DNA of 64,000 nucleotides, taken from NCBI RefSeq assembly GCF_046105845.1, contig NZ_CP151004.1; one strand, written 5' to 3'. Of the stretch, positions 27,864 through 55,890 are shown piece after piece. Both the position numbers and the translations under genes were made by a program. The notes beneath the pieces were generated by a model, which searched no databases, had not been told where the DNA came from, and saw only the letters and a list, made by a program, of their open reading frames with translations. Positions within the stretch are counted from its first letter, which is position 1, and the number at the start of each line of letters is the position of its first letter. Source of the stretch: Escherichia coli. Its GTDB lineage: Bacteria > Pseudomonadota > Gammaproteobacteria > Enterobacterales > Enterobacteriaceae.

Positions 27864-30730
<2,867 letters not shown>

Positions 30731-30870
30731 CTATTATTTTAGCCACATTATTAGTAACAATGATAATCTGGCTGTATCGAAAATAATTCTAAACTTTCAG
30801 GAGATTTATTATGAATAAACGTATCCTCACGATTGCGCCATTCTTCTTACCGATATTCTGACACATATCA

Positions 30871-31797
30871 TCAATTTTCGAGTTTTACTCTTTTCTCCAC
30901 CATAAAATCAATAAAAGCACGAACTTTAGAGGGCATTCTCACCCGTGATGAAACATATATATAAAATCCAGGAAATGAAACGGCCCAATCCTCAAGAATC
31001 GGCTGTAACTTGCCCGCATTAATATGTTCAGCGATTGCAAAATCCAGATGTTGAATGATACCCGTTCCATTCAGCGCCATTCGTATCATGCTTTCGTCAT
31101 CATTAGAAATATACTTACCTGACACCTCTATTTCGAACTCTTCATTACCCCCCACAACATTCGAAAACTCCCATGCAGAGAGTGCACCGCTACTTTTATG
31201 CCGCAACCGAAGACAATTATGGTTACTCAATTCCTGAGGCGTTTCAGGAATACCGTGTTCTTTTAAATAATCTGGCGATGCCACAGTAACCAGTTTAATA
31301 AGCGGAGAAACAGGAACGGCAGTCATATGCTCATCCAGTCCTTGCTCAAGACGTATGCCCACATCACAGCCGTCCGCAATAATGTTAGATAAACCGTCAT
31401 CCATAATGAGTTCTATCTTTGTTTTGGGGTAACGAGTAAGAAACTCGCCAATATGAGGCTCAACAAGCATCCGTGCTGCAACACGGGAGGAATTTATTCT
31501 CAACAGGCCTGTAGGTTCAAGTTGGGTATCACCAACATCTTTCAAAGCATCATCAATTTGTCCCAAAGCCGACACCAGCACTTCATACAGACGCTGTCCT
31601 TCCTCAGTAAGCGACATATTGCGGGTCGTACGGTATATCAGCTTGGTGTTAAGACGTTCCTCAAGAGATTTTAAATTCTGGGACAATGCGGCCCGCGTAA
31701 TACCCATTTCAGAAGCGGCTCTGGAAAAACTGCCGGCACGAACAATAAGCGCAAACCAGGCAAGAGAAGGCAAAATTGAAGGCTCTATTTTCATCAT
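30871..31797 (-). CDS. LysR-family transcriptional regulator
   Basis: LysR HTH (LAWFALIVRAGSFSRAASEMGITRAALSQNLKSLE); start taken at MMKIEP. Confidence 0.8.
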   Translation of the reverse strand: MMKIEPSILPSLAWFALIVRAGSFSRAASEMGITRAALSQNLKSLEERLNTKLIYRTTRNMSLTEEGQRLYEVLVSALGQIDDALKDVGDTQLEPTGLLRINSSRVAARMLVEPHIGEFLTRYPKTKIELIMDDGLSNIIADGCDVGIRLEQGLDEHMTAVPVSPLIKLVTVASPDYLKEHGIPETPQELSNHNCLRLRHKSSGALSAWEFSNVVGGNEEFEIEVSGKYISNDDESMIRMALNGTGIIQHLDFAIAEHINAGKLQPILEDWAVSFPGFYIYVSSRVRMPSKVRAFIDFMVEKRVKLEN

Positions 31798-31953
31798 TGT
31801 AAACCTTAACTTAACACTGTGATAGATATTAGACCATTGATGATAACCAATACAAGTCATACTATTACGCCGTTCTCGATATGAACACAAATGCCAGTTG
31901 CGGATAATAGAAATGATATTTAAATCTGTTTAGGCAAATCCCCGGAGCTTGAA

Positions 31954-32874
31954 ATGAAAACTGTTTCGATAAAACACACTTACTGGGATATAGCTGCTGA
32001 TATCTATTTCCCTGACGATTTTAATAGTAAAAAAAAGTATCCTGCCATTATCAGCGCCCATCCAATTGGAAGCTGCAAAGAACAGACATCGGGTAGTGTG
32101 TATGGTGCCGCCCTGGCAAAAGCTGGCTTTATCGTCATTGCTTTTGATGCCAGTTTTCAGGGAAGCAGCGGTGGGGAACCGCGTTATCTGGAAGATCCAA
32201 CAATGCGAGTAAAAGACTTCAGCATTGTCGTTGATTACCTTACCAGCTTACCTTACGTTGATGCCGGGCGTATTGGTGTACTGGGTATTTGTGGTGGAGG
32301 TGGATATGCCATTAATGCCGCAATGACAGAACGTCGAATTAAAGCTATTGGTACTGTCACGGGTGCAAACTACGGGCGTCTTATGCGTGAGGGATTTACA
32401 GCGTTTAATCCTATCGGAGCACTCGAAGCAATGGCGCAACAAAGAACAGACGAAGCTAACGGCGCAAAACTTCGCGTAGATGATTTACTCCCCTCTTCTC
32501 CAGATGCAGCTCTTGAAGCGGGATTAACAGAAATAGACCTTTTTGAAGCCACAGAATATTATCGTTCGCCACGAGGCTGTGCACCTAATGGGGTAAATCG
32601 TTCGCTATTCTCACATCAGACTGTTGCCGTGGGTTGGGATGCATTTCATCTTGCAGAAGTCCTGTTAACTCAACCAATAATGGTTGTGGTGGGCGATAGA
32701 GTGGGCGCATTTGGTGCCTACCGTGACGGCTGCGAAATTATTGGCCGCGCTGCCTCAAAACATAAAGAGCTGGTCGTGGTTGAAGGTTATTCACATTACG
32801 ACCTGTATGATAAGCCAGAACCTGTGAAACAGGCGCTCGATAAATTAATTCCTTTTTATAAAACACATTTGTAA
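31954..32874 (+). CDS. Alpha/beta hydrolase, dienelactone-hydrolase-like (GxCxG nucleophile elbow)
   Basis: 306 aa; GICGGGGYAI motif; divergent from LysR gene. Confidence 0.7.
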   Translation: MKTVSIKHTYWDIAADIYFPDDFNSKKKYPAIISAHPIGSCKEQTSGSVYGAALAKAGFIVIAFDASFQGSSGGEPRYLEDPTMRVKDFSIVVDYLTSLPYVDAGRIGVLGICGGGGYAINAAMTERRIKAIGTVTGANYGRLMREGFTAFNPIGALEAMAQQRTDEANGAKLRVDDLLPSSPDAALEAGLTEIDLFEATEYYRSPRGCAPNGVNRSLFSHQTVAVGWDAFHLAEVLLTQPIMVVVGDRVGAFGAYRDGCEIIGRAASKHKELVVVEGYSHYDLYDKPEPVKQALDKLIPFYKTHL

Positions 32875-33118
32875 TAATCTTACAGGGAGATTCCTTATCT
32901 CCCTGACATTTATCCTTTATTGACTACACAACAATAATGAAATTACTCAAAAAGAAATTTCATTAAAGAAACAAAAAAGCAGTAACTCAATCATTAAGAT
33001 TATTAGAAACCCTTTGAAGGGATTATAAATAAAGCCAGAAATCTTGGTTCCAAAGCTGGCAACAACTAACCAGTTAAAACATACGCATCAAAATCAGATA
33101 AACATTTGAGGTATTGTT

Positions 33119-34261
33119 ATGACAAATAAACACCCATCATTGTTTTCTCCTTTTATGCTGACAGAAAAAATAAAGCTACGTAATCGTATCGTTATGGCTC
33201 CTATGACGACCTGGTCAGCGAATCCTGATGGAACCATCTCTGAGCAAGAACTCGAATTTTATAAACGCCGCTCACAAAATGTTGGTTTAGTAATAACAGG
33301 ATGCACCTATGTCACGCCAAGCGGCATTGGGTTTACTCATGAATTTGCCGCGTATGACGACCGTTTCATTAACAGCCTTGAAAAGTTAGCAGCTGCAGCC
33401 AAAAGTGGCGGTGCTCCGGCTATTTTGCAGATTTTCCACGCCGGTAATAAAGCCATCCCGGAGCTTGTGCCAAATAACGATGTTATTAGTGCCAGCGCAT
33501 CAAGCGTAAAATCTGGTGATTTTATGAAGAGAGTGGTACAAAGCAGGGAAATGACTGAAAACGAAATTCAGGAAACCATTAGAGCATTCGGAGATGTCAC
33601 AAAAAGGGCGATTAAAGCAGGTTTTGATGGCGTTGAACTTCATGGTGCGCACGGATTCCTTCTGCAGAATTTCTTCTCCCCTCTATTTAACCAGCGTAAT
33701 GACCGATGGGGAGGAGATCTTGAAGGACGTATGCGCTTCCCGCTGGCCGTATTACAGGAAGTAAAAAATGTAGTCTATGAATATGCGACAAAGCCCTTTG
33801 CTATCGGTTACAGAATATCTCCTGAAGAATCTGTAACAGGGGGGCTGCGGATAGAGGATACTTATAAACTCCTTGATCGACTCATTTCATCCGGTATTTC
33901 GTATATACATACCTCGCTGGTCAGTATTAACGATAGCTACCCTGTTGAGTCGCCAAATGGCCCCCGAACTATTGAATTGATTTTAAATCATATTGCAGGC
34001 AGAGTGCCGGTAATCGCTGCAGGTAAAATACGCACACCGTCTCAGGCTCAAGAAGCAATTTCCGCTGGCCTGCCACTTGTTGCGATCGGTAAAGGGCTGG
34101 TGATAAATCCAGAATGGGTGACTTTAGCTGAATCAGGTAGAGGCCATGAAATTCAAACAACCCTTAATCCACAACTTGTTCCTGAATTAACCATTCCGGA
34201 TAAACTATGGGATCAAATTCAGGCATCGAAAGGAACTGGCTGGTTTCCGTTAATGGATTAA
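33119..34261 (+). CDS. NADH:flavin oxidoreductase, Old Yellow Enzyme family
   Basis: 380 aa; OYE-like N-terminus (RNRIVMAPMTT...QIFHAGNKA...ELHGAHGFLLQNFFSP). Confidence 0.8.
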   Translation: MTNKHPSLFSPFMLTEKIKLRNRIVMAPMTTWSANPDGTISEQELEFYKRRSQNVGLVITGCTYVTPSGIGFTHEFAAYDDRFINSLEKLAAAAKSGGAPAILQIFHAGNKAIPELVPNNDVISASASSVKSGDFMKRVVQSREMTENEIQETIRAFGDVTKRAIKAGFDGVELHGAHGFLLQNFFSPLFNQRNDRWGGDLEGRMRFPLAVLQEVKNVVYEYATKPFAIGYRISPEESVTGGLRIEDTYKLLDRLISSGISYIHTSLVSINDSYPVESPNGPRTIELILNHIAGRVPVIAAGKIRTPSQAQEAISAGLPLVAIGKGLVINPEWVTLAESGRGHEIQTTLNPQLVPELTIPDKLWDQIQASKGTGWFPLMD

Positions 34262-34733: not shown

Positions 34734-34835
34734 ATGAAAGAGAATAAAGTACAGCAAATCAGTCATAAACTGATTAATATCGTTGTTTTTATCGCAATTG
34801 TAGAATACGCCTATTTATTTCTCCATTTCTATTAA
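34734..34835 (+). CDS. ykgR: Small membrane protein YkgR (33 aa)
   Basis: ORF MKENKVQQISHKLINIVVFIAIVEYAYLFLHFY; matches recalled YkgR; hydrophobic C-terminal half. Confidence 0.7.
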   Translation: MKENKVQQISHKLINIVVFIAIVEYAYLFLHFY

Positions 34836-35157
34836 TAACGGCAGTAAACTGTTCACTTCAGTGATATTTAAAATATGCATCCTCTCCCTTTTTGTAAGTA
34901 ATTATTATATCCGTGGGAGAGGAATACACGCTGTCAGGTAATCAATCATACTGCGATAAATCATCGGCCAGTAAAGTGGAGATAACCTCCATTCTCGAAA
35001 AAGCGAAACTATCATCAATCACTCATCCAGGCGTTTATGGGAGCGTCGCCAACGGCTGCTAACAATGCCAGACTTCCCCGTTGGGGAAATTCCACATACC
35101 ACAAATAGTCACAGGGATTGGGTGTTGAAATGATCCGGATGAGCATGTATCTTTATG

Positions 35158-35450: not shown

Positions 35451-35590
35451 TGAAAGTCCTTAACTCTCTGCGTACCGCAAAAGAACGCCATCCAGACTGT
35501 CAGATTGTGAAGCGAAAAGGACGGCTATATGTGATTTGTAAATCTAATCCACGTTTTAAGGCCGTTCAGGGTCGTAAGAAAAAACGTTGA
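35450..35590 (+). CDS. ykgO: Ribosomal protein L36 paralog
   Basis: 46 aa [46 protein letters not shown]; start overlaps ykgM stop (TGATG). Confidence 0.9.
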
Positions 35591-35996
35591 TTCAAAATTC
35601 GACGGATTAATGATATTTGTCTGATTAATAATCAGACCTGATTAATGTTGGTGTATTTATTACACCAGCATTAATTTTCTTGGGGATGTATCTTCCTGTT
35701 CATTTAAGGTCAACTGCCTGACGTTTCTCTCCGAATATTCCATTATATTAATGTTGACTTGTTAACCAGGTGCGCCCTGTATGCTGGCATCAACTCTCTT
35801 TTAGACTGAACACGCCACTCAGTTTCCTCCCTTTGCGACGCAGCCTGCATTTACACTCAAACGGTTAAGATGATAAATGTGGTAAATCTGTTGGTACTGA
35901 CATAAAAACGTTTACGTCACAGGAACGGCCTGATCCACCGGTAACCCCATCGCCGACGTTCGAGTGCCAGTTAGAGTAACGCGCACAGATGACTGA

Positions 35997-50359: not shown

Positions 50360-51553
50360 CTAAAGCGCACCGGCCTTCTGGCGTGCGGTAACAAAGGTCA
50401 GTACGCCAGCGCAAAGGAGCAGCACGCTACTCATAGCAAACGTGCTCTGCCAGCCAAGGCGGTCAAATACGATGCCTCCTGCTGTTGATCCAAGGGCGAT
50501 GGCGAGCTGAATCACCGCGACCATGAGCCCGCCTCCGGCTTCGGCGTTGTCAGGCAACGTACGCGCAATCCATGTCCACCATCCGGTTGGCGCGGCGGTG
50601 GCCAGCATGCCCCAGAGTCCTAACAGCAGCGAGACCGTCCAGACGTGATGCCCGGTCAGCATCAGACCGATAGCAATGACGGCCATCAGTCCGGGTATGG
50701 CCATCAGCGTGGGGTAGAATTTTCTGTTGAGAAATGCCGAAACAACCAGCGTGCCAATAAAACCGGCCACGCCGATAATCAGCAAAATCAACGACAAGCC
50801 TAAGGAATTAACCCGTGTCACCGACTCCAGAAACGGGCGCACATAGGTGAATAGTGCAAACTGCCCCATGAAAAACAGGCAGCAGGCTATCATGCCGACC
50901 ACAACCATGCGGCGGCTAAATAAGCGGAATACCGCGCCACATGAAGTGTGGCTTTTATTCGCATCCATGCTTGGCAGGCTGATGCACTGCCAGATAAAGG
51001 CGACAACCGCGATGGGCACCAGGCACAAGAAAGCGCCTCGCCATCCGACCGTAGCCCCCAGATAGCTTCCCAGCGGTGCGGCCACGACCGTCGCCAGCGC
51101 ATTACCGGCGTTGAAAATTGCCAGCGCACGCGTGACCTGATGCTGCGGCACCAGACGAATCGCCGTTGCCGCTGACATCGACCAGAATCCGCCAATAGCC
51201 ACACCAATCATCGCACGACCGACCATATACATCAGATAACTGGAAGCCAGCGCAATAATAAGCCCCGATACGGCCATCAGAACCGTCATCCCCAGCAGCA
51301 GGAACTTACGATTCATCTTTCCAGCTAGCGTTGAAAGCGTCAGGCTGGTCAGAACCGCCAGCGCGCCGGAGATAGCAATCCCCTGCCCTGCCAGCCCCTC
51401 CGTCACGCCTAAATCGCGGGTAATCGGCGTGAGCAGGCTGACGGGCATAAATTCAGAAGCAATCAGCACAAACACGCACAGGGTCATGGCAAAAATACCG
51501 CCCCAGTATGCGCGCTGATGATGAGGTGATAGTGTTTGGCTTAGTGTCGACAT
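50360..51553 (-). CDS. MFS transporter (12 TM, drug/metabolite efflux-like)
   Basis: 397-aa hydrophobic ORF with MFS-like repeated TM pattern. Confidence 0.8.
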   Translation of the reverse strand: MSTLSQTLSPHHQRAYWGGIFAMTLCVFVLIASEFMPVSLLTPITRDLGVTEGLAGQGIAISGALAVLTSLTLSTLAGKMNRKFLLLGMTVLMAVSGLIIALASSYLMYMVGRAMIGVAIGGFWSMSAATAIRLVPQHQVTRALAIFNAGNALATVVAAPLGSYLGATVGWRGAFLCLVPIAVVAFIWQCISLPSMDANKSHTSCGAVFRLFSRRMVVVGMIACCLFFMGQFALFTYVRPFLESVTRVNSLGLSLILLIIGVAGFIGTLVVSAFLNRKFYPTLMAIPGLMAVIAIGLMLTGHHVWTVSLLLGLWGMLATAAPTGWWTWIARTLPDNAEAGGGLMVAVIQLAIALGSTAGGIVFDRLGWQSTFAMSSVLLLCAGVLTFVTARQKAGAL

Positions 51554-51628
51554 AGTGAAATTTCACAAAGATCAGGATAAAAGCCACCAGCCTATGGCCG
51601 GTGGCTTTGCATCAATTCAGGAGAGGTT

Positions 51629-52786
51629 TTATTTCAGTTTGGTCTGGAAAAATTGTTCGAACTTCGCGAAAGGTATTTTTCCGGCCACGTTATCGTACAG
51701 GTCCACGTGATTTGCCCCTGGTACCACCACCAACTCTTTGTCTTTACTGCCAACCGCCTTGTAAGCATCTTCAGCAAAATAGCGTGAATGTGCTTTCTCA
51801 CCGGTCACAATCAGCGTCGGAATGGTGATTTCACTGGCGTAGCTCAACAGCGGCATATTCATAAATGACAGCGGCATCGTTGCCGTCCACGCCCCGGTAG
51901 AGTTAACGGAACGTTCGTGGAAGCCGCGCGGCATGCGATAGTAGTCAAAGAACTCTTTCAGTACCGGATGAGGATTTGCCGGCAGCGTTTCTGGCAGAAT
52001 GCGCTCGCCAGCACTGACCTTGCCGTTGCTATCGACATTAATATCATGACCACCGTGAGCGAACGTTCCGCTCTGCGCATCCTGCCAGCGCTGTTCATTC
52101 AGATATTGCAGAACGGCACGACGGTCGGCGGTAGAATAACGGTCTTTGCCATCCCCCACACCATGACCCATCGCCCGGCTCATGTCATACATCACGCTGG
52201 TAGCTACCGCTTTAACGCGGGTATCCATCGCCACGTCGTTCAGCGCCATGCCGCCCCAGCCACAAATACCGAGCAGCCCGATACGGTTGCGATCTACCTC
52301 TTTTTGCAGCCCTAAGAAATCCACCGCCGCGCTGAAATCTTCAGTGTTGATATCCGGTGAGGCGACGTTTCGCGGATAGCCGCCGCTTTCCCCGGTGTAA
52401 GAAGGATCGAACGCCAGGGTAACAAACCCTCGTTCCGCCAGCGTCTGCGCATACAGGCCGCTGGATTGCTCTTTCACCGCGCCAAATGGCCCACTGACCG
52501 CAATCGCCGCCAGCTTGCGATCGCCACGGTCTTTAGGCAGGTAAAGATCGCCCACTAAGGTGATGCCATATCGGTTCGGGAACGAGACTTTACGGTGATC
52601 GACTTTCTGGCTCTCGGCGAACGTTTTATCCCATTTATCTGTCATGGACACAGGGGCATTAGGATTGGTTGAATCAGCATAACTCATTGTCGTGACCCCA
52701 CTTAATGATGCGAAAAGCAGCATGGTCGGCATCGCGGTTTTTAGCGTTCGGGTGAAGGCTTTCATAAAAATCCCCATAAAAAACAA
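51629..52786 (-). CDS. Secreted alpha/beta hydrolase, dienelactone-hydrolase-like (GxCxG)
   Basis: 385 aa; signal peptide; GICGWGG nucleophile elbow; paralog of 31954-32874. Confidence 0.7.
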   Translation of the reverse strand: MFFMGIFMKAFTRTLKTAMPTMLLFASLSGVTTMSYADSTNPNAPVSMTDKWDKTFAESQKVDHRKVSFPNRYGITLVGDLYLPKDRGDRKLAAIAVSGPFGAVKEQSSGLYAQTLAERGFVTLAFDPSYTGESGGYPRNVASPDINTEDFSAAVDFLGLQKEVDRNRIGLLGICGWGGMALNDVAMDTRVKAVATSVMYDMSRAMGHGVGDGKDRYSTADRRAVLQYLNEQRWQDAQSGTFAHGGHDINVDSNGKVSAGERILPETLPANPHPVLKEFFDYYRMPRGFHERSVNSTGAWTATMPLSFMNMPLLSYASEITIPTLIVTGEKAHSRYFAEDAYKAVGSKDKELVVVPGANHVDLYDNVAGKIPFAKFEQFFQTKLK

Positions 52787-52951
52787 CAGAGAGATACAGG
52801 TTTCCGACGGACAACGCTGCGGTGCTTTACTTTGATGGGGTCATTATAGTGAGCAGAATTAGTGCTGATTAGGGGGCGATTAATGCTAAGATTAATACCA
52901 TATTGTTATAAATTAATGCGGAGATTGCCGGCATGAAGGGGGGATGTTTCA

Positions 52952-53836
52952 ATGGCGAAAAGGGAGAACTACAACGAGCTGTACCTGTTTATGCAGGTGG
53001 TGCGGGAAGGCAGCTTTACCGCAGCGGCTCAGCGGCTGGGTCTTGCTCAGTCAGGAGTCAGCCGTTCTGTTCGCGAGCTTGAAGAAAGGCTCGGCGTCCA
53101 GCTGCTAGTGCGCACCACGCGTAAACTGTCGCTGACACAAGCAGGCGAGCAGCTCTACCAGAAGACGGCATCTGGATTTGAAATGTTAGATCTTGGGCTT
53201 GCCACGCTGGCGCACTATCGAGAGACGCCCTCCGGCACGGTGCGTATCAATGCCAGCCAGCACGCGATTGATAAATGCCTGCTGCCAAAGCTGGCGGTAT
53301 TTAAACAGCGATATCCTGATATCCGGCTTGAACTGATAAATGAGAGCCGGTTCGTCGATATCATCGAGGAAAGATTCGATGCAGGTGTCCGCCTGGGGCC
53401 TGAAGTCGGCCAGGGTATGGTCGCGGTACGCATCACGCCCGATATGGAGATGGCAATTGTGGGGACTCCGGAACATTTTCGTCGCTATGGTTTTCCGCAA
53501 ACCCCGGCGGATTTAAAGGCGCATCCCTGTATCGCCTATCAGTTTGCCGACGGCAGCGTATACCAGTGGGAACTCAATCAGGATGATAAAAAAATCACTC
53601 ATCGCCCTGAAGGGCAATGGGCCTTATCCGACAGCTATATGGAAGCAGAAGCCGCCCGGCTGGGCCTCGGATTGGCCTATGTTCCTGTTGAACTGGTCGC
53701 GGATGATTTAGAACACGGTAAGCTTATCAGGGTGTTGCAGCGTTACAGCCTGCGAATGGAGGGATTGTTTCTCTATTACCCTCATCGCAACGTCTCCCCC
53801 GCCCTGCGGATGGTCATTGATACATTGAAAATCTGA
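52952..53836 (+). CDS. LysR-family transcriptional regulator
   Basis: 294 aa; LysR HTH (LYLFMQVVREGSFTAAAQRLGLAQSGVSRSVRELEERLG); divergent from hydrolase gene. Confidence 0.8.
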   Translation: MAKRENYNELYLFMQVVREGSFTAAAQRLGLAQSGVSRSVRELEERLGVQLLVRTTRKLSLTQAGEQLYQKTASGFEMLDLGLATLAHYRETPSGTVRINASQHAIDKCLLPKLAVFKQRYPDIRLELINESRFVDIIEERFDAGVRLGPEVGQGMVAVRITPDMEMAIVGTPEHFRRYGFPQTPADLKAHPCIAYQFADGSVYQWELNQDDKKITHRPEGQWALSDSYMEAEAARLGLGLAYVPVELVADDLEHGKLIRVLQRYSLRMEGLFLYYPHRNVSPALRMVIDTLKI

Positions 53837-54061
53837 ACGTTAATAACGACCGACTCTTCACTGTGCAACATTGTGTCAGGTAGTCCCTCTGCGTTCAATT
53901 CCAGGGTCTGCTTTGAGCGAGAAAGAGGGGACTATCCAGCAATGGAGATCACCCAAAAGAAAAAACCACCTGGCTCCCTCGACAACCTTCATCCAGGCAT
54001 TTAGCCTCAATCAACATTTTTATATCTGTCAGGTTACTTCATGATGAAAACTGATCATTAT

Positions 54062-54315
54062 CGTTGTTTTTGTTGCAATAGTAGAATACGCGTATTTATT
54101 CCTCCATCTCTATTAATAACGGCAATAAACTGTTCACTTCACTGATATTTAAAATATGTATCCTTTTCAAGCTGTTCAGCGGCGTAAGAAAAAGTATTAA
54201 TTATGAATTCGACGATTTAACCATATCTGTCTGATTGGTAATCATCCGTGATTAATGTTGGTCTATTGATTACGCCAGCATTAACCGCTTAGGGATGTAT
54301 TCTTCCTGTTGATAT
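54062..54315 (+). repeat. Degenerate paralogous copy of the ykgR 3' half fused to the ykgO 3' end plus downstream sequence
   Basis: About 90% identity over about 100 bp to 34776-34885 and about 75-80% over about 145 bp to 35561-35705, by eye; ykgM/ykgO and the Zur box are missing from this copy. Confidence 0.7.
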
Positions 54316-54963: not shown

Positions 54964-55515
54964 TCAGTTTGCAGATGCAGTAGGTCTGATGGTAATTTCG
55001 GTTGTATCAACTGTTTCGGGAGATTCAATAATATGCCTTACAGCACGGGCAATATCCGCGGGTTGAAGTGCAACAGAACGGTAGGCGTCCATTGACTTCA
55101 TGGTTTCCACATGGGTAATGGTTGAAGCCAGTTCACTTTCTACAACCCCAGGATTTACGCAGGTCACACGGATTTTCGAGCTTTCCTGCCGTAAGCCATC
55201 CGAAATAGCCCGTACTGCAAATTTTGATGCACAATAGACTGCGCCTGTGGGCACAACAGAAAGGACACCAATAGAACCAAGATTGATTATCTGACCGGAA
55301 CCCTGTGCTTCCATCACCGGAAGTACAGCGCCAATTCCCCAAAGTACGCCTTTGATATTCACGTCAATAGTGAGTTCCCATTCATCTTGTTTTCCTGCTG
55401 CAAGCGGTGAAAGCGGCATAACGCCCGCATTATTGATAAGAACATCAACTCGCCCCCAGCTATCCAGCGCTGCTTGCACGAAATCGGCCATGGACTGCCG
55501 GTCTGTGACATCCAA
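54964..55515 (-). pseudogene. 5'-truncated short-chain dehydrogenase/reductase (SDR) gene
   Basis: Contains SDR catalytic region (NNAG, YCASK) but lacks the N-terminal Rossmann TGxxxGxG segment; reading frame terminates at the junction with the integrase fragment. Confidence 0.6.
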
Positions 55516-55686
55516 CTTGCATTTTCAGAAATGGGAGGCTGGGAGTCTATCGAAATGGTTCGTCGATATGCTCACCTCGCGCCTAATCACCTTACCGAAC
55601 ACGCACGGCAAATAGACTCAGTCCTGAACCCATCGGTCCCAAATTTGTCCCAGTCAAAAAATAAGAAAGGTACTAATGATGTGTAA
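55516..55686 (+). pseudogene. C-terminal fragment of a tyrosine (P4-type) integrase abutting thrW
   Basis: [20 protein letters not shown] is a typical integrase C-terminus including the catalytic Tyr region; ends 15 bp from the tRNA 3' end; no N-terminal or core domain present. Confidence 0.6.
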
Positions 55687-55700
55687 CTTATTGATTTAAA

Positions 55701-55776
55701 TGGTGCCGATAATAGGAGTCGAACCTACGACCTTCGCATTACGAATGCGCTGCTCTACCAACTGAGCTATATCGGC
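55701..55776 (-). tRNA. thrW: tRNA-Thr (anticodon CGU)
   Basis: 76-nt cloverleaf read on minus strand: GCCGATATAGCTCAGTTGGTAGAGCAGCGCATTCGTAATGCGAAGGTCGTAGGTTCGACTCCTATTATCGGCACCA; anticodon loop contains CGT. Confidence 0.93.
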
Positions 55777-55890
55777 CCTGAAAGGACATGTTCACGAACG
55801 TGAATCACGGTGGACAAGGTTAAAACTAACCGGGCGATGCGTCAATGGCCTTGTGAATCAAATGGCTACTTTTGCATCACCCGGTTTTAT

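What the first reader, a model, noticed from the sequence alone, without database searches (positions are those of the whole stretch)
30871..32874. Duplicated divergent LysR / Cys-hydrolase module (second copy at 51629-53836)
Two separate loci each pair a LysR regulator divergently with a dienelactone-hydrolase-like enzyme carrying a GxCxG nucleophile motif (GICGGGGY at 31954-32874; GICGWGG at 51629-52786). The hydrolases share further motifs (LAFDPSYTGESGG vs IAFDASFQGSSGG). The second copy has a signal peptide and an adjacent MFS transporter, suggesting a periplasmic variant with export or import. Paralogous regulator-enzyme cassettes about 20 kb apart suggest module duplication and divergence.
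Basis: seen in the sequence. Interest (0 to 1): 0.5.

Follow-up and report, generated by a model that had tools for sequence, protein, structure and literature searches.

The report
Two unrelated-by-duplication LysR–cysteine hydrolase cassettes
This E. coli chromosome segment carries two regulator-plus-enzyme cassettes whose enzymes are true but very ancient relatives (YcjY/PA2218 family, function unknown), so they were inherited or acquired separately and are not a local duplication, which makes this an ordinary finding.

Summary
Both loci pair a LysR regulator divergently with an alpha/beta hydrolase carrying a G-I-C-x-G nucleophile elbow.

The hydrolases are 32% identical over their full length (E 2e-43).

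They are not a duplication in this genome:
- They share no DNA similarity.
- Their GC content differs (44-46% against 54-57%).
- They fall in separate clades with 100% bootstrap support, and each clade spans several phyla.
- Hyd1 is 72-82% identical to Burkholderia and Rhodococcus proteins. Hyd2 is 84-95% identical to enterobacterial proteins and far closer to PA2218 than to Hyd1.
- The two LysR proteins are 29% identical, which is background for their LysR subgroup.

Each locus is a conserved three-gene cassette found in other genera within different flanks:
- LysR1-Hyd1-OYE reductase, cytoplasmic.
- LysR2-Hyd2-MFS transporter, exported. The signal peptide is real; relatives carry Sec or Tat signals.

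E. coli also has a third cassette of this kind, pgrR-ycjY. All are accessory or core genes already annotated in RefSeq. The substrate is unknown. Interest is low.

The parts
30871..31797 (-). LysR1, LysR-type regulator of cassette A (308 aa; the 339-aa TTG ORF reaching 31890 is probably too long)
   Evidence: best NCBIfam hit YafC, E 7e-57, below cut-off. It is 51-57% identical to the LysR genes that sit divergently next to Hyd1-type operons in Burkholderia, Shewanella, Stenotrophomonas, Myxococcus and Rudaea.
31798..31953 (.). Divergent intergenic region of cassette A, with a candidate regulator dyad TGTAA-N8-TTA(A/C)(C/A) at 31798-31816 abutting the LysR1 start codon
   Evidence: Alignment of 7 distant orthologous intergenic regions keeps TGTAAA and the second half-site. 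Function is inferred. The promoter scan is not above shuffled sequence.
31954..32874 (+). Hyd1, cytoplasmic YcjY-family alpha/beta hydrolase. Cys113 codon is 32290-32292 and His281 codon is 32794-32796.
33119..34261 (+). OYE-family NADH-dependent flavin oxidoreductase, third gene of cassette A
   Evidence: (NamA 178 bits, below the 431 cut-off). An OYE gene recurs next to Hyd1-type genes in E. albertii, Paraburkholderia, Burkholderia, Acinetobacter and Stenotrophomonas. The LysR1-Hyd1-OYE trio alone is shared with E. albertii.
29777..30712 (-). LysR0, a second LysR gene in tandem downstream of LysR1. It is not part of the mobile trio. It is closest to PgrR (48%) and LysR2 (42%).
   Evidence: Its 56-57% orthologues sit divergently from MFS plus Hyd2-type genes in Bosea and Rhizobium. 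It is absent from the E. albertii locus.
50360..51553 (-). MFS transporter (NepI-like / sugar-efflux-like group), third gene of cassette B
   Evidence: NepI 294 bits, below the 584 cut-off. An MFS gene is conserved next to Hyd2-type genes.
51629..52765 (-). Hyd2, exported PA2218-type hydrolase (378 aa). Signal peptide residues 1-30 are 52676-52765, with cleavage predicted after SYA. Cys168 codon is 52262-52264 and His353 codon is 51707-51709.
   Evidence: 2HDW, E 8e-125; the 378-aa form dominates in Enterobacterales; Sec or twin-arginine signals in relatives.
52766..52951 (.). Divergent intergenic region of cassette B. On the minus strand it holds a conserved imperfect dyad ATAACAATATGGTAT (52895-52909, about -66), AGCA-N7-TGCT (52852-52866), TATAAT (52843-52848) and a GGGGA ribosome-binding site before the ATG at 52765.
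   Evidence: These blocks are invariant in the alignment with Dickeya, Yersinia and Klebsiella. Their roles as LysR box and promoter are inferred.
52952..53836 (+). LysR2, LysR-type regulator of cassette B (294 aa)
   Evidence: A 294-aa LysR sits divergently from Hyd2 orthologues in Dickeya, Yersinia and Klebsiella, and these form their own LysR cluster.

Best explanation
The window is E. coli chromosome (the proA/thrW, pao, ecp, ykgMO, fdeC region). The two loci are two different, anciently separated cassette types. Both are built around paralogous cysteine-nucleophile alpha/beta hydrolases of the YcjY/PA2218 family, and each has its own divergently transcribed LysR regulator. Cassette A is LysR1 <-> Hyd1-OYE reductase and is cytoplasmic. 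Cassette B is LysR2 <-> Hyd2-MFS, and Hyd2 is exported to the periplasm through a Sec signal peptide. The two cassettes came into, or were kept in, E. coli independently. They are present or absent independently among strains, and each occurs as the same three-gene unit in other genera. E. coli's core pgrR-ycjY pair is a third example.

Likely working, all inferred. Each LysR binds the dyad in its intergenic region, autoregulates, and switches the hydrolase operon in response to a small-molecule ligand; PgrR, the characterised relative, is a repressor. The hydrolase attacks an ester, lactone or thioester carbonyl with Cys113 activated by His281, forms a thioester acyl-enzyme, and releases an acid. 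In cassette A the substrate or product is also handled by an NAD(P)H-dependent reductase: OYE here, a 211-aa NmrA-like protein in most other taxa. That points to an unsaturated or electrophilic carbonyl compound. In cassette B hydrolysis happens outside the cytoplasm, and the MFS protein moves substrate or product across the inner membrane.

For: Separate ancestry. Pairwise identity is 32% Hyd1/Hyd2, 41% Hyd1/YcjY and 34% Hyd2/YcjY. The Hyd2-type and YcjY-type clades have 100/100 bootstrap support. Hyd1 has 72-82% orthologues in Burkholderia, Rhodococcus, Gordonia and Myxococcus with saturated third codon positions. Hyd2 has 84-95% orthologues across Enterobacterales. There is no DNA similarity between the cassettes and GC is 44-46% against 54-57%.

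Cassette conservation. LysR1-type regulator, Hyd1-type hydrolase and a reductase occur together in loci L003, L007-L010, L014, L021, L031 and L081. E. albertii shares only the trio. LysR, Hyd2 and MFS occur together in Dickeya, Yersinia and Klebsiella within different flanks, and in Bosea and Rhizobium.

Export. The N-terminus is conserved in enterics, and relatives carry Sec or twin-arginine signals.

Independent distribution. Hyd1 is in 2115, Hyd2 in 945 and ycjY in 5210 of 5426 complete E. coli genomes. K-12 has a clean deletion of window 27865-34169.

Regulation precedent. PgrR represses ycjY-ymjDC-mpaA and autoregulates. The intergenic dyads are conserved.
Against: No member of the family has a demonstrated substrate, so the chemistry rests on the fold, the conserved Cys/His and the neighbouring genes. 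The acid member of a triad is not identified: position 248 after strand 7 varies (S/D/E), and D/E258 lies in a helix. Operon structure was not shown. There is a 244-bp gap between Hyd1 and OYE, and a weak terminator-like hairpin lies in the 75-bp Hyd2-MFS gap. The closest E. coli strain has a frameshifted OYE, so the reductase is dispensable in at least one strain. The trees are neighbour-joining on a sample biased towards Hyd1 relatives. Signal-peptide cleavage is predicted by eye, not by a dedicated predictor.
Confidence: 0.72

Rival explanations
1. Local or recent module duplication: one LysR-hydrolase cassette was copied within the E. coli (or enterobacterial) chromosome and the copies diverged.
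For: Both cassettes have the same divergent architecture and sit 20 kb apart. The hydrolases are homologous over their full length. Short direct repeats (ykgR and ykgO fragments, 91% and 79% identical) lie to the right of both cassettes.
Against: Amino-acid identity is 32% with no DNA similarity. The repeated fragments cover only about 270 nt outside the cassettes. The hydrolases sit in different clades that each span several phyla. LysR1/LysR2 identity of 29% equals background. GC content and strain distribution differ. Each cassette occurs alone in other genera.
Confidence: 0.03
2. Ancient module duplication: a LysR-hydrolase pair duplicated as a unit early in Proteobacteria. The descendants then co-diverged and spread by horizontal transfer, so the two E. 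coli cassettes are distant module-level paralogues.
For: About 20 of roughly 30 proteobacterial or myxobacterial loci have a divergent LysR of one subgroup next to the hydrolase operon, for all three hydrolase subfamilies. Regulator and hydrolase distances correlate (r 0.58, 0 of 2000 permutations). LysR0, LysR2 and PgrR are 41-48% identical to one another.
Against: LysR1-type regulators are no closer to LysR2 than to non-partner LysR genes. Regulator types are exchanged between hydrolase types: LysR1-type sits with YcjY-first operons in loci L014, L018 and L081, while Hyd2-type genes have LysR0-type regulators in Bosea but LysR2-type in enterics. Members outside Proteobacteria use other regulators or none of this kind. 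The mirror correlation can arise from shared species history and from co-transfer of cassettes.
Confidence: 0.2
3. The enzymes are acyl-transferring or lactone/ester-forming catalysts rather than hydrolases. Candidates are thioesterase/cyclase or polyester-synthase-like activities, as proposed long ago for YcjY as a possible short-chain polyhydroxybutyrate polymerase.
Against: There is no carrier protein, PKS or CoA-ligase gene in either cassette. Hyd2 is exported, where thioester donors are not expected. The neighbours are reductases and a transporter, typical of catabolism or detoxification. Sequence identity to DcsB and GrgF is only 18-22%.
Confidence: 0.1

Closest known systems
E. coli K-12 pgrR(ycjZ)-ycjY cassette (YcjY structure, PDB 5XB6)
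   Different: It belongs to a different orthologous subfamily. ycjY is near-core in E. coli (96% of genomes) and is linked to the mpaA murein-peptide genes. Hyd1 and Hyd2 are accessory genes with OYE or MFS partners. The substrate of YcjY is also unknown.
Pseudomonas aeruginosa PA2218 (PDB 2HDW), next to PA2219 (OpdE membrane protein) and PA2220 (transcriptional regulator)
   Same: Hyd2 matches PA2218 at E 8e-125 over residues 30-382, including the N-terminal extension. The neighbouring membrane protein and regulator are named. That they are MFS-type and LysR-type is from my own memory and was not checked here.
   Different: PA2218 is a structural-genomics entry with no known function. Gene order and flanks were not examined here.
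Dienelactone hydrolase (ClcD type, Pfam PF01738)
   Same: Both have the alpha/beta fold and a Cys at the nucleophile elbow. The family also has a conserved Glu after strand 3 and conserved Arg residues (E43, R77, R128, R164), which recall Glu36 and Arg81 of DLH; that comparison is from memory and is only a lead.
Fungal polyketide-associated alpha/beta hydrolases DcsB (PDB 7D78) and GrgF (PDB 6LZH)
   Different: Identity is 18-22%. They act on PKS-bound or CoA thioesters within biosynthetic clusters, and there is no such context here.
UilS acyl-homoserine lactonase of Serratia (NCBIfam NF047920) and MHET/BHET esterases (PDB 9PJB, 8B4U)
   Same: UilS is the best NCBIfam hit for both hydrolases, and these are the best non-family sequence hits over the N-terminal 130 residues.
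   Different: Scores are 75 and 63 bits against a cut-off of 400. Only the N-terminal half aligns. The MHET/BHET and PET esterases are, as far as I recall, serine enzymes; the nucleophile of UilS was not found in the paper.

Membership tests
YcjY/PA2218 family of alpha/beta hydrolases | Full-length sequence and fold match to the two solved members | tested here: met
YcjY/PA2218 family of alpha/beta hydrolases | Cys at the nucleophile elbow (G-I-C-x-G) and His in the S/N-H-x-D-L-Y-D motif | tested here: met
   Cys113 is in 113/113 and His281 in 111/113 family sequences, and both are present in Hyd1 and Hyd2. The elbow geometry appears in the model.
YcjY/PA2218 family of alpha/beta hydrolases | Hydrolytic activity that depends on the Cys | not testable with these tools
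   No biochemical data were found for any member.
Dienelactone hydrolase (Pfam PF01738) | Significant full-domain match to the DLH profile | tested here: not met
   Hyd1 gives i-E 6e-5 covering model positions 12-123 of 217. Hyd2 gives i-E 8.5e-3 covering 50 residues. Other alpha/beta profiles score better.
Dienelactone hydrolase (Pfam PF01738) | Structurally closer to DLHs than to other alpha/beta hydrolases | tested here: not met
Dienelactone hydrolase (Pfam PF01738) | Cys-His-Asp triad | tested here: inconclusive
   Cys and His are conserved, but no conserved acid was found at the canonical post-strand-7 position.
LysR-type transcriptional regulators | N-terminal HTH plus LysR substrate-binding domain, about 300 aa | tested here: met
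   There are full-length NCBIfam LysR hits (YafC E 1e-57, AaeR, GcvA). Orthologous partners carry PF00126 plus PF03466. PGAP annotates them as LysR.
LysR-type transcriptional regulators | Divergent target gene with a T-N11-A-type dyad near -65 | tested here: inconclusive
   The divergent layout is met. A conserved imperfect dyad, ATAAC-N5-GGTAT, lies about 66 nt upstream of the inferred start, measured from the conserved TATAAT, in cassette B. A TGTAA-N8-TTACA-like dyad is present in cassette A. No binding data exist.
Duplicated module within this genome | The copies are each other's closest relatives, for both enzyme and regulator, with residual DNA similarity | tested here: not met
UilS quorum-quenching lactonase (NF047920) | Score above the curated cut-off of 400 bits | tested here: not met
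   Scores are 74.8 and 63.5 bits, over the N-terminal third only.
NepI purine-ribonucleoside efflux pump (NF007578), tested for the MFS gene | Score above the curated cut-off of 584 bits | tested here: not met
   The score is 294 bits. The protein is an MFS member of the same broad group, not an equivalog.

The most novel reading that the evidence does not exclude
The YcjY/PA2218 family is an uncharacterised class of cysteine hydrolases under unusually strong constraint: 72-82% protein identity between E. coli and Burkholderia, Rhodococcus or Myxococcus, although synonymous sites are saturated. It has cytoplasmic branches partnered with ene- or quinone-type reductases and exported (Sec or Tat) branches partnered with an MFS transporter, and several paralogues often share one operon. 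On this reading the cassettes form a widespread, horizontally mobile two-compartment system for one still-unknown class of common electrophilic esters or lactones, and some E. coli strains carry three independently regulated versions.
Probability: 0.25. Interest if true: 0.45.

Novelty: new member of a known kind. Interest (0 to 1): 0.2.

Why it matters
As found, it matters little. These are annotated accessory genes, and their arrangement (a LysR gene divergent from an enzyme operon) is the commonest regulatory layout in Proteobacteria.

Four modest points are useful:
- The cassettes define three clean orthologous subfamilies of a structurally solved but functionally blank enzyme family (about 1,200 clusters at E<=1e-30). 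Their conserved partners (OYE or NmrA-like reductase, MFS, export signals) narrow the search for a substrate.
- The PGAP start of Hyd2 in many records removes its signal peptide.
- The K-12 pseudogenes ykgP and ymjC/ymjD are explained as remnants of the OYE reductase gene and the NmrA-like reductase gene of these cassettes.
- The extreme protein conservation of Hyd1-type and YcjY-type enzymes across phyla makes them reasonable targets for function discovery.

Tried and rejected
- **Literature.** Searches for YcjY, PA2218, 5XB6/2HDW and DcsB gave no biochemical function. Only the PgrR regulon and an old GXCXG 'polymerase candidate' prediction turned up.
- **Promoter and terminator scans.** Counts of promoter-like sites were not above shuffled sequence, so I used phylogenetic footprints instead.
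- **K-12 YagP as a remnant of LysR2.** Rejected: only 28% identity.
- **DNA similarity between the two regions.** Only about 270 nt of ykgR and ykgO fragments outside the cassettes are shared.
- **UilS lactonase, NepI and NamA equivalog membership.** All scores are far below the curated cut-offs.
- **Catalytic acid.** Conservation did not identify it: position 248 is variable, and D/E258 is 87% conserved but lies in a helix.
- **A 'Hyd1-type' clade defined by a 50% identity threshold.** It was not monophyletic (bootstrap 18/100). The Hyd1 group contains a core set (72-82% identity) and a 'Hyd1b' set (53-67%) that usually sits in tandem with a YcjY-type gene.
Full report
**What the window is.** Megablast against complete E. 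coli genomes matches both regions at 98.5-99.9% identity. RefSeq annotation of colinear strains gives this gene order: rclRABC, an aldo/keto reductase, fdeC, two aldo/keto reductases, LysR, LysR, alpha/beta hydrolase, NADH-dependent flavin oxidoreductase, ykgR, ykgMO, ecpRABCDE, ykgJ, yagU, paoABCD, MFS transporter, alpha/beta hydrolase, LysR, fragments of ykgR, an SDR gene and an integrase, tRNA-Thr, proA. The finding therefore concerns annotated accessory genes of E. coli.

**Check of the observation.**
- For LysR1 the start shared with orthologues and used by PGAP is the ATG at 31797 (308 aa), not the TTG at 31890.
- For Hyd2 the start is best placed at the ATG at 52765 (378 aa). This is the length of nearly all enterobacterial orthologues, and the ATG is preceded by GGGGA-N5.
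- Both motif pairs exist.
- The hydrolases align over their whole length at 32% identity, E 2e-43.

**What the hydrolases are.**
- Pfam gives only weak, partial hits to many alpha/beta families. The best are Peptidase_S15 at 4e-10 for Hyd1 and PETase at 8e-6 for Hyd2; DLH scores only 6e-5 and 8.5e-3.
- Against solved structures, Hyd1 matches E. coli K-12 YcjY (5XB6) at E 1e-66, and Hyd2 matches P. aeruginosa PA2218 (2HDW) at E 8e-125. Each matches the other structure at about 1e-44.
- An AlphaFold model of Hyd1 (pLDDT 96.5) places Cys113 at a classical strand-turn-helix nucleophile elbow and shows a helical lid at about residues 140-240.
- In 113 distinct family sequences from 80 genomes, Cys113 is invariant and His281 is present in all complete sequences. 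A set of charged residues is also conserved: K42-E43-Q44, D65, R77, D88, R128, R164, Y202-Y203, R207 and D286.
- Among the 150 best representatives of a 1.84-billion-protein library, the position is Cys in 136 of the 146 that have a residue there and Ser in 3.
- The acid of a putative triad is unresolved.
- No paper in the library reports a substrate for any member.

**Duplication or not.** A scan of one genome per species returned 80 loci. These, plus loci fetched by protein identity, fall into three subfamilies.
- *Hyd1-type:* E. coli Hyd1 is 72-82% identical to proteins of Burkholderia, Stenotrophomonas, Shewanella, Acinetobacter, Myxococcus, Rhodococcus and Gordonia.
- *YcjY-type:* 68-82% identical to K-12 YcjY in Alpha-, Beta- and Gammaproteobacteria, Bacteroidota and Corynebacterium.
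- *Hyd2/PA2218-type:* 84-95% identical across Enterobacterales, and 53-61% in Bosea, Rhizobium, Microvirga, Sutterella, Gastranaerophilales, Synergistales and Methanobacterium.

The evidence against a duplication within this genome is as follows.
- The Hyd2-type and YcjY-type clades have 100/100 neighbour-joining bootstrap support. The smallest clade containing both E. coli Hyd1 and Hyd2 holds 82 of 113 sequences.
- Mean identity between the Hyd1 and Hyd2 groups is 32%.
- At DNA level the two cassettes share nothing.
- GC content is 44-46% for LysR1-Hyd1-OYE and 54-57% for MFS-Hyd2-LysR2.
- The Hyd1 gene is in 2115, Hyd2 in 945 and ycjY in 5210 of 5426 complete E. coli genomes.
- K-12 lacks window 27865-34169 by a clean deletion whose right edge leaves the ykgP pseudogene, the last 90 bp or so of the OYE gene.

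These results exclude a duplication in the E. coli lineage.

**The regulators.**
- LysR1 and LysR2 are 29% identical.
- LysR0 is 42% identical to LysR2 and 48% to PgrR. LysR2 is 41% identical to PgrR. LysR1 is the outlier at 29-35%.
- LysR1 is 28-31% identical to LysR genes that merely lie near family hydrolases without being their divergent partner. The LysR1/LysR2 value is therefore background for this LysR subgroup.
- LysR1 does have clear orthologues (51-57%) that sit divergently next to Hyd1-type operons in six other genera.
- PgrR-type regulators (59-73%) accompany YcjY-type operons in Alphaproteobacteria.
- LysR0-type regulators (56-57%) accompany MFS plus Hyd2-type genes in Bosea and Rhizobium.
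- LysR2-type regulators accompany Hyd2 in Dickeya, Yersinia and Klebsiella.
- Regulator and enzyme distances correlate (r 0.58, 0 of 2000 permutations), which shows that cassettes travel as units.
- Regulator types are nevertheless exchanged between hydrolase types, and members outside Proteobacteria lack this LysR. An ancient co-duplication is therefore possible but not shown.

**The cassettes.** Cassette A is LysR1 <-> Hyd1-OYE (window 30871-34261).
- E. albertii shares exactly this trio at 85-88% nucleotide identity, in unrelated flanks.
- Elsewhere the Hyd1-type gene is followed or preceded by a 211-aa NmrA-like NAD(P)-binding protein and/or an OYE gene, and often by a YcjY-type paralogue in the same operon.
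- In K-12, ymjD/ymjC downstream of ycjY are remnants of such an NmrA-like gene (54% identity over 46 residues, E 1e-14).

Cassette B is LysR2 <-> Hyd2-MFS (window 50360-53836).
- The same three genes occur in Dickeya, Yersinia and Klebsiella between different neighbours, sometimes with a cyclophilin-like gene.
- In Bosea the order is LysR <-> MFS-Hyd2; in Rhizobium the same LysR and MFS pair has another gene-sized gap before the Hyd2-type gene.
- In P. aeruginosa, PA2218 is followed by PA2219 (OpdE membrane protein) and PA2220 (transcriptional regulator).

**Export of Hyd2.**
- The N-terminus, MKAFTRTLKTAMPTMLLFASLSGVTTMSYA|DSTNP, has a basic n-region, a hydrophobic core and an S-x-A cleavage motif.
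- It is conserved at protein level in Dickeya, Yersinia and Klebsiella.
- Hyd2-type proteins of Gastranaerophilales and Synergistales have textbook Sec signals. Those of Bosea, Microvirga, Rhizobium and Sutterella have twin-arginine signals (RRDLMKLTG, RRNLLKMTG, RRTFLKLTG, RRTFISAS).
- Export is therefore a trait of the subfamily. The 352-aa PGAP models that start at M34 are probably too short.

**Regulatory DNA.**
- The cassette B intergenic region keeps four blocks invariant across four genera. They are an imperfect dyad ATAACAATATGGTAT (52895-52909), an AGCA-N7-TGCT element, a TATAAT box (52843-52848) about 70 nt before the ribosome-binding site, and the site itself.
- The dyad centre lies about 66 nt upstream of the inferred transcription start, which is the usual position of a LysR recognition site according to general knowledge of the family.
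- The cassette A region keeps a TGTAA-N8-TTACA-like dyad touching the LysR1 start codon in seven distant taxa.
- These are candidates only. The simple promoter scans were not above shuffled controls.
- PgrR, the one studied relative, represses ycjY-ymjDC-mpaA and its own gene.

**Likely working.**
- *Shown:* family membership, the conserved Cys and His, the cassette composition and its conservation, the export signals, and independent ancestry.
- *Inferred:* each LysR senses a small molecule and controls its divergent operon. The enzyme forms a Cys113 thioester with an ester, lactone or thioester substrate. In cassette A an NAD(P)H-dependent reductase acts on the same unsaturated or electrophilic compound. 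In cassette B hydrolysis is periplasmic and the MFS protein carries substrate or product.
- *Alternative:* an acyl-transfer or lactone-forming role, by analogy with DcsB and GrgF and with an old prediction for YcjY. I judge it less likely because of the gene context and the export of Hyd2.

**Verdict.** The duplication reading is not supported, apart from a possible very ancient event. The cassettes are new, uncharacterised members of the known pgrR-ycjY kind. One feature is mildly unusual: Hyd1-type proteins keep 72-82% identity across phyla, while third codon positions are at 24-30% identity and GC3 ranges from 0.34 to 0.87. That indicates old transfers and very strong purifying selection on an enzyme whose substrate nobody knows.

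Noticed in passing
window 34767-34883 and 35554-35703 versus 54048-54164 and 54164-54313: Direct repeats: the 3' half of ykgR plus its downstream sequence (117 nt, 91% identical) and the end of ykgO plus its downstream sequence (151 nt, 79% identical) recur just right of LysR2. There the two pieces are contiguous, with ykgM-ykgO missing. A degenerate copy of the ykgR..ykgO locus therefore sits beside the SDR and integrase fragments near tRNA-Thr. It does not include either cassette.
   Followed up: partly
window 27865-34169: K-12 MG1655 lacks exactly this 6.3-kb block (two aldo/keto reductase genes, LysR0, LysR1, Hyd1 and most of OYE). Its ykgP pseudogene is the last 90 bp or so of the OYE gene.
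   Followed up: yes
L002 6681-6934 (K-12 ymjC/ymjD, downstream of ycjY): These two tiny K-12 'genes' are remnants of the 211-aa NmrA-like NAD(P)-binding reductase gene that follows family hydrolases in other taxa (54% identity over 46 residues, E 1e-14).
   Followed up: partly
window 52664-52765 (Hyd2 N-terminus): RefSeq/PGAP models in several strains start Hyd2 at Met34 (352 aa) and so drop the signal peptide. The 378-aa form is the one conserved across Enterobacterales.
   Followed up: yes
window 31954-32874 and loci L005, L009, L011, L031: The Hyd1 protein is 72-82% identical to actinobacterial, betaproteobacterial and myxobacterial orthologues. Third codon positions are at random-level identity (24-30%) and GC3 differs (0.34 against 0.77-0.87). 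This is an unusually constrained accessory enzyme.
   Followed up: partly
loci L013, L014, L018, L019, L023-L028, L035, L043, L047, L048, L052, L054, L058, L081: Two or three paralogues of the family commonly lie in tandem in one operon: YcjY-type with Hyd1b-type, or a distant YcjY-like gene with a Hyd2-type gene. One library representative (P0241, 632 aa) matches the profile in two stretches and may be a fusion of two family domains; this was not examined. This hints at paralogues working together.
   Followed up: no
L007 851-3874 and L005 7397-9268: Fusaric-acid-resistance / AaeAB-type aromatic-acid efflux genes lie next to Hyd1 orthologues in Shewanella and Rhodococcus. This is a possible hint at an aromatic acid product.
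   Followed up: no
L092 23420-24566 (strain Res13-Lact-PER13-34): The OYE gene of cassette A is frameshifted in the E. coli strain closest to the window, whereas it is an intact 380-codon ORF in the window at 33119-34261.
   Followed up: no
window 54964-55800: Truncated SDR oxidoreductase and integrase fragments lie beside tRNA-Thr (thrW) downstream of proA. These are remnants of an island at the site where K-12 carries prophage CP4-6.
   Followed up: no
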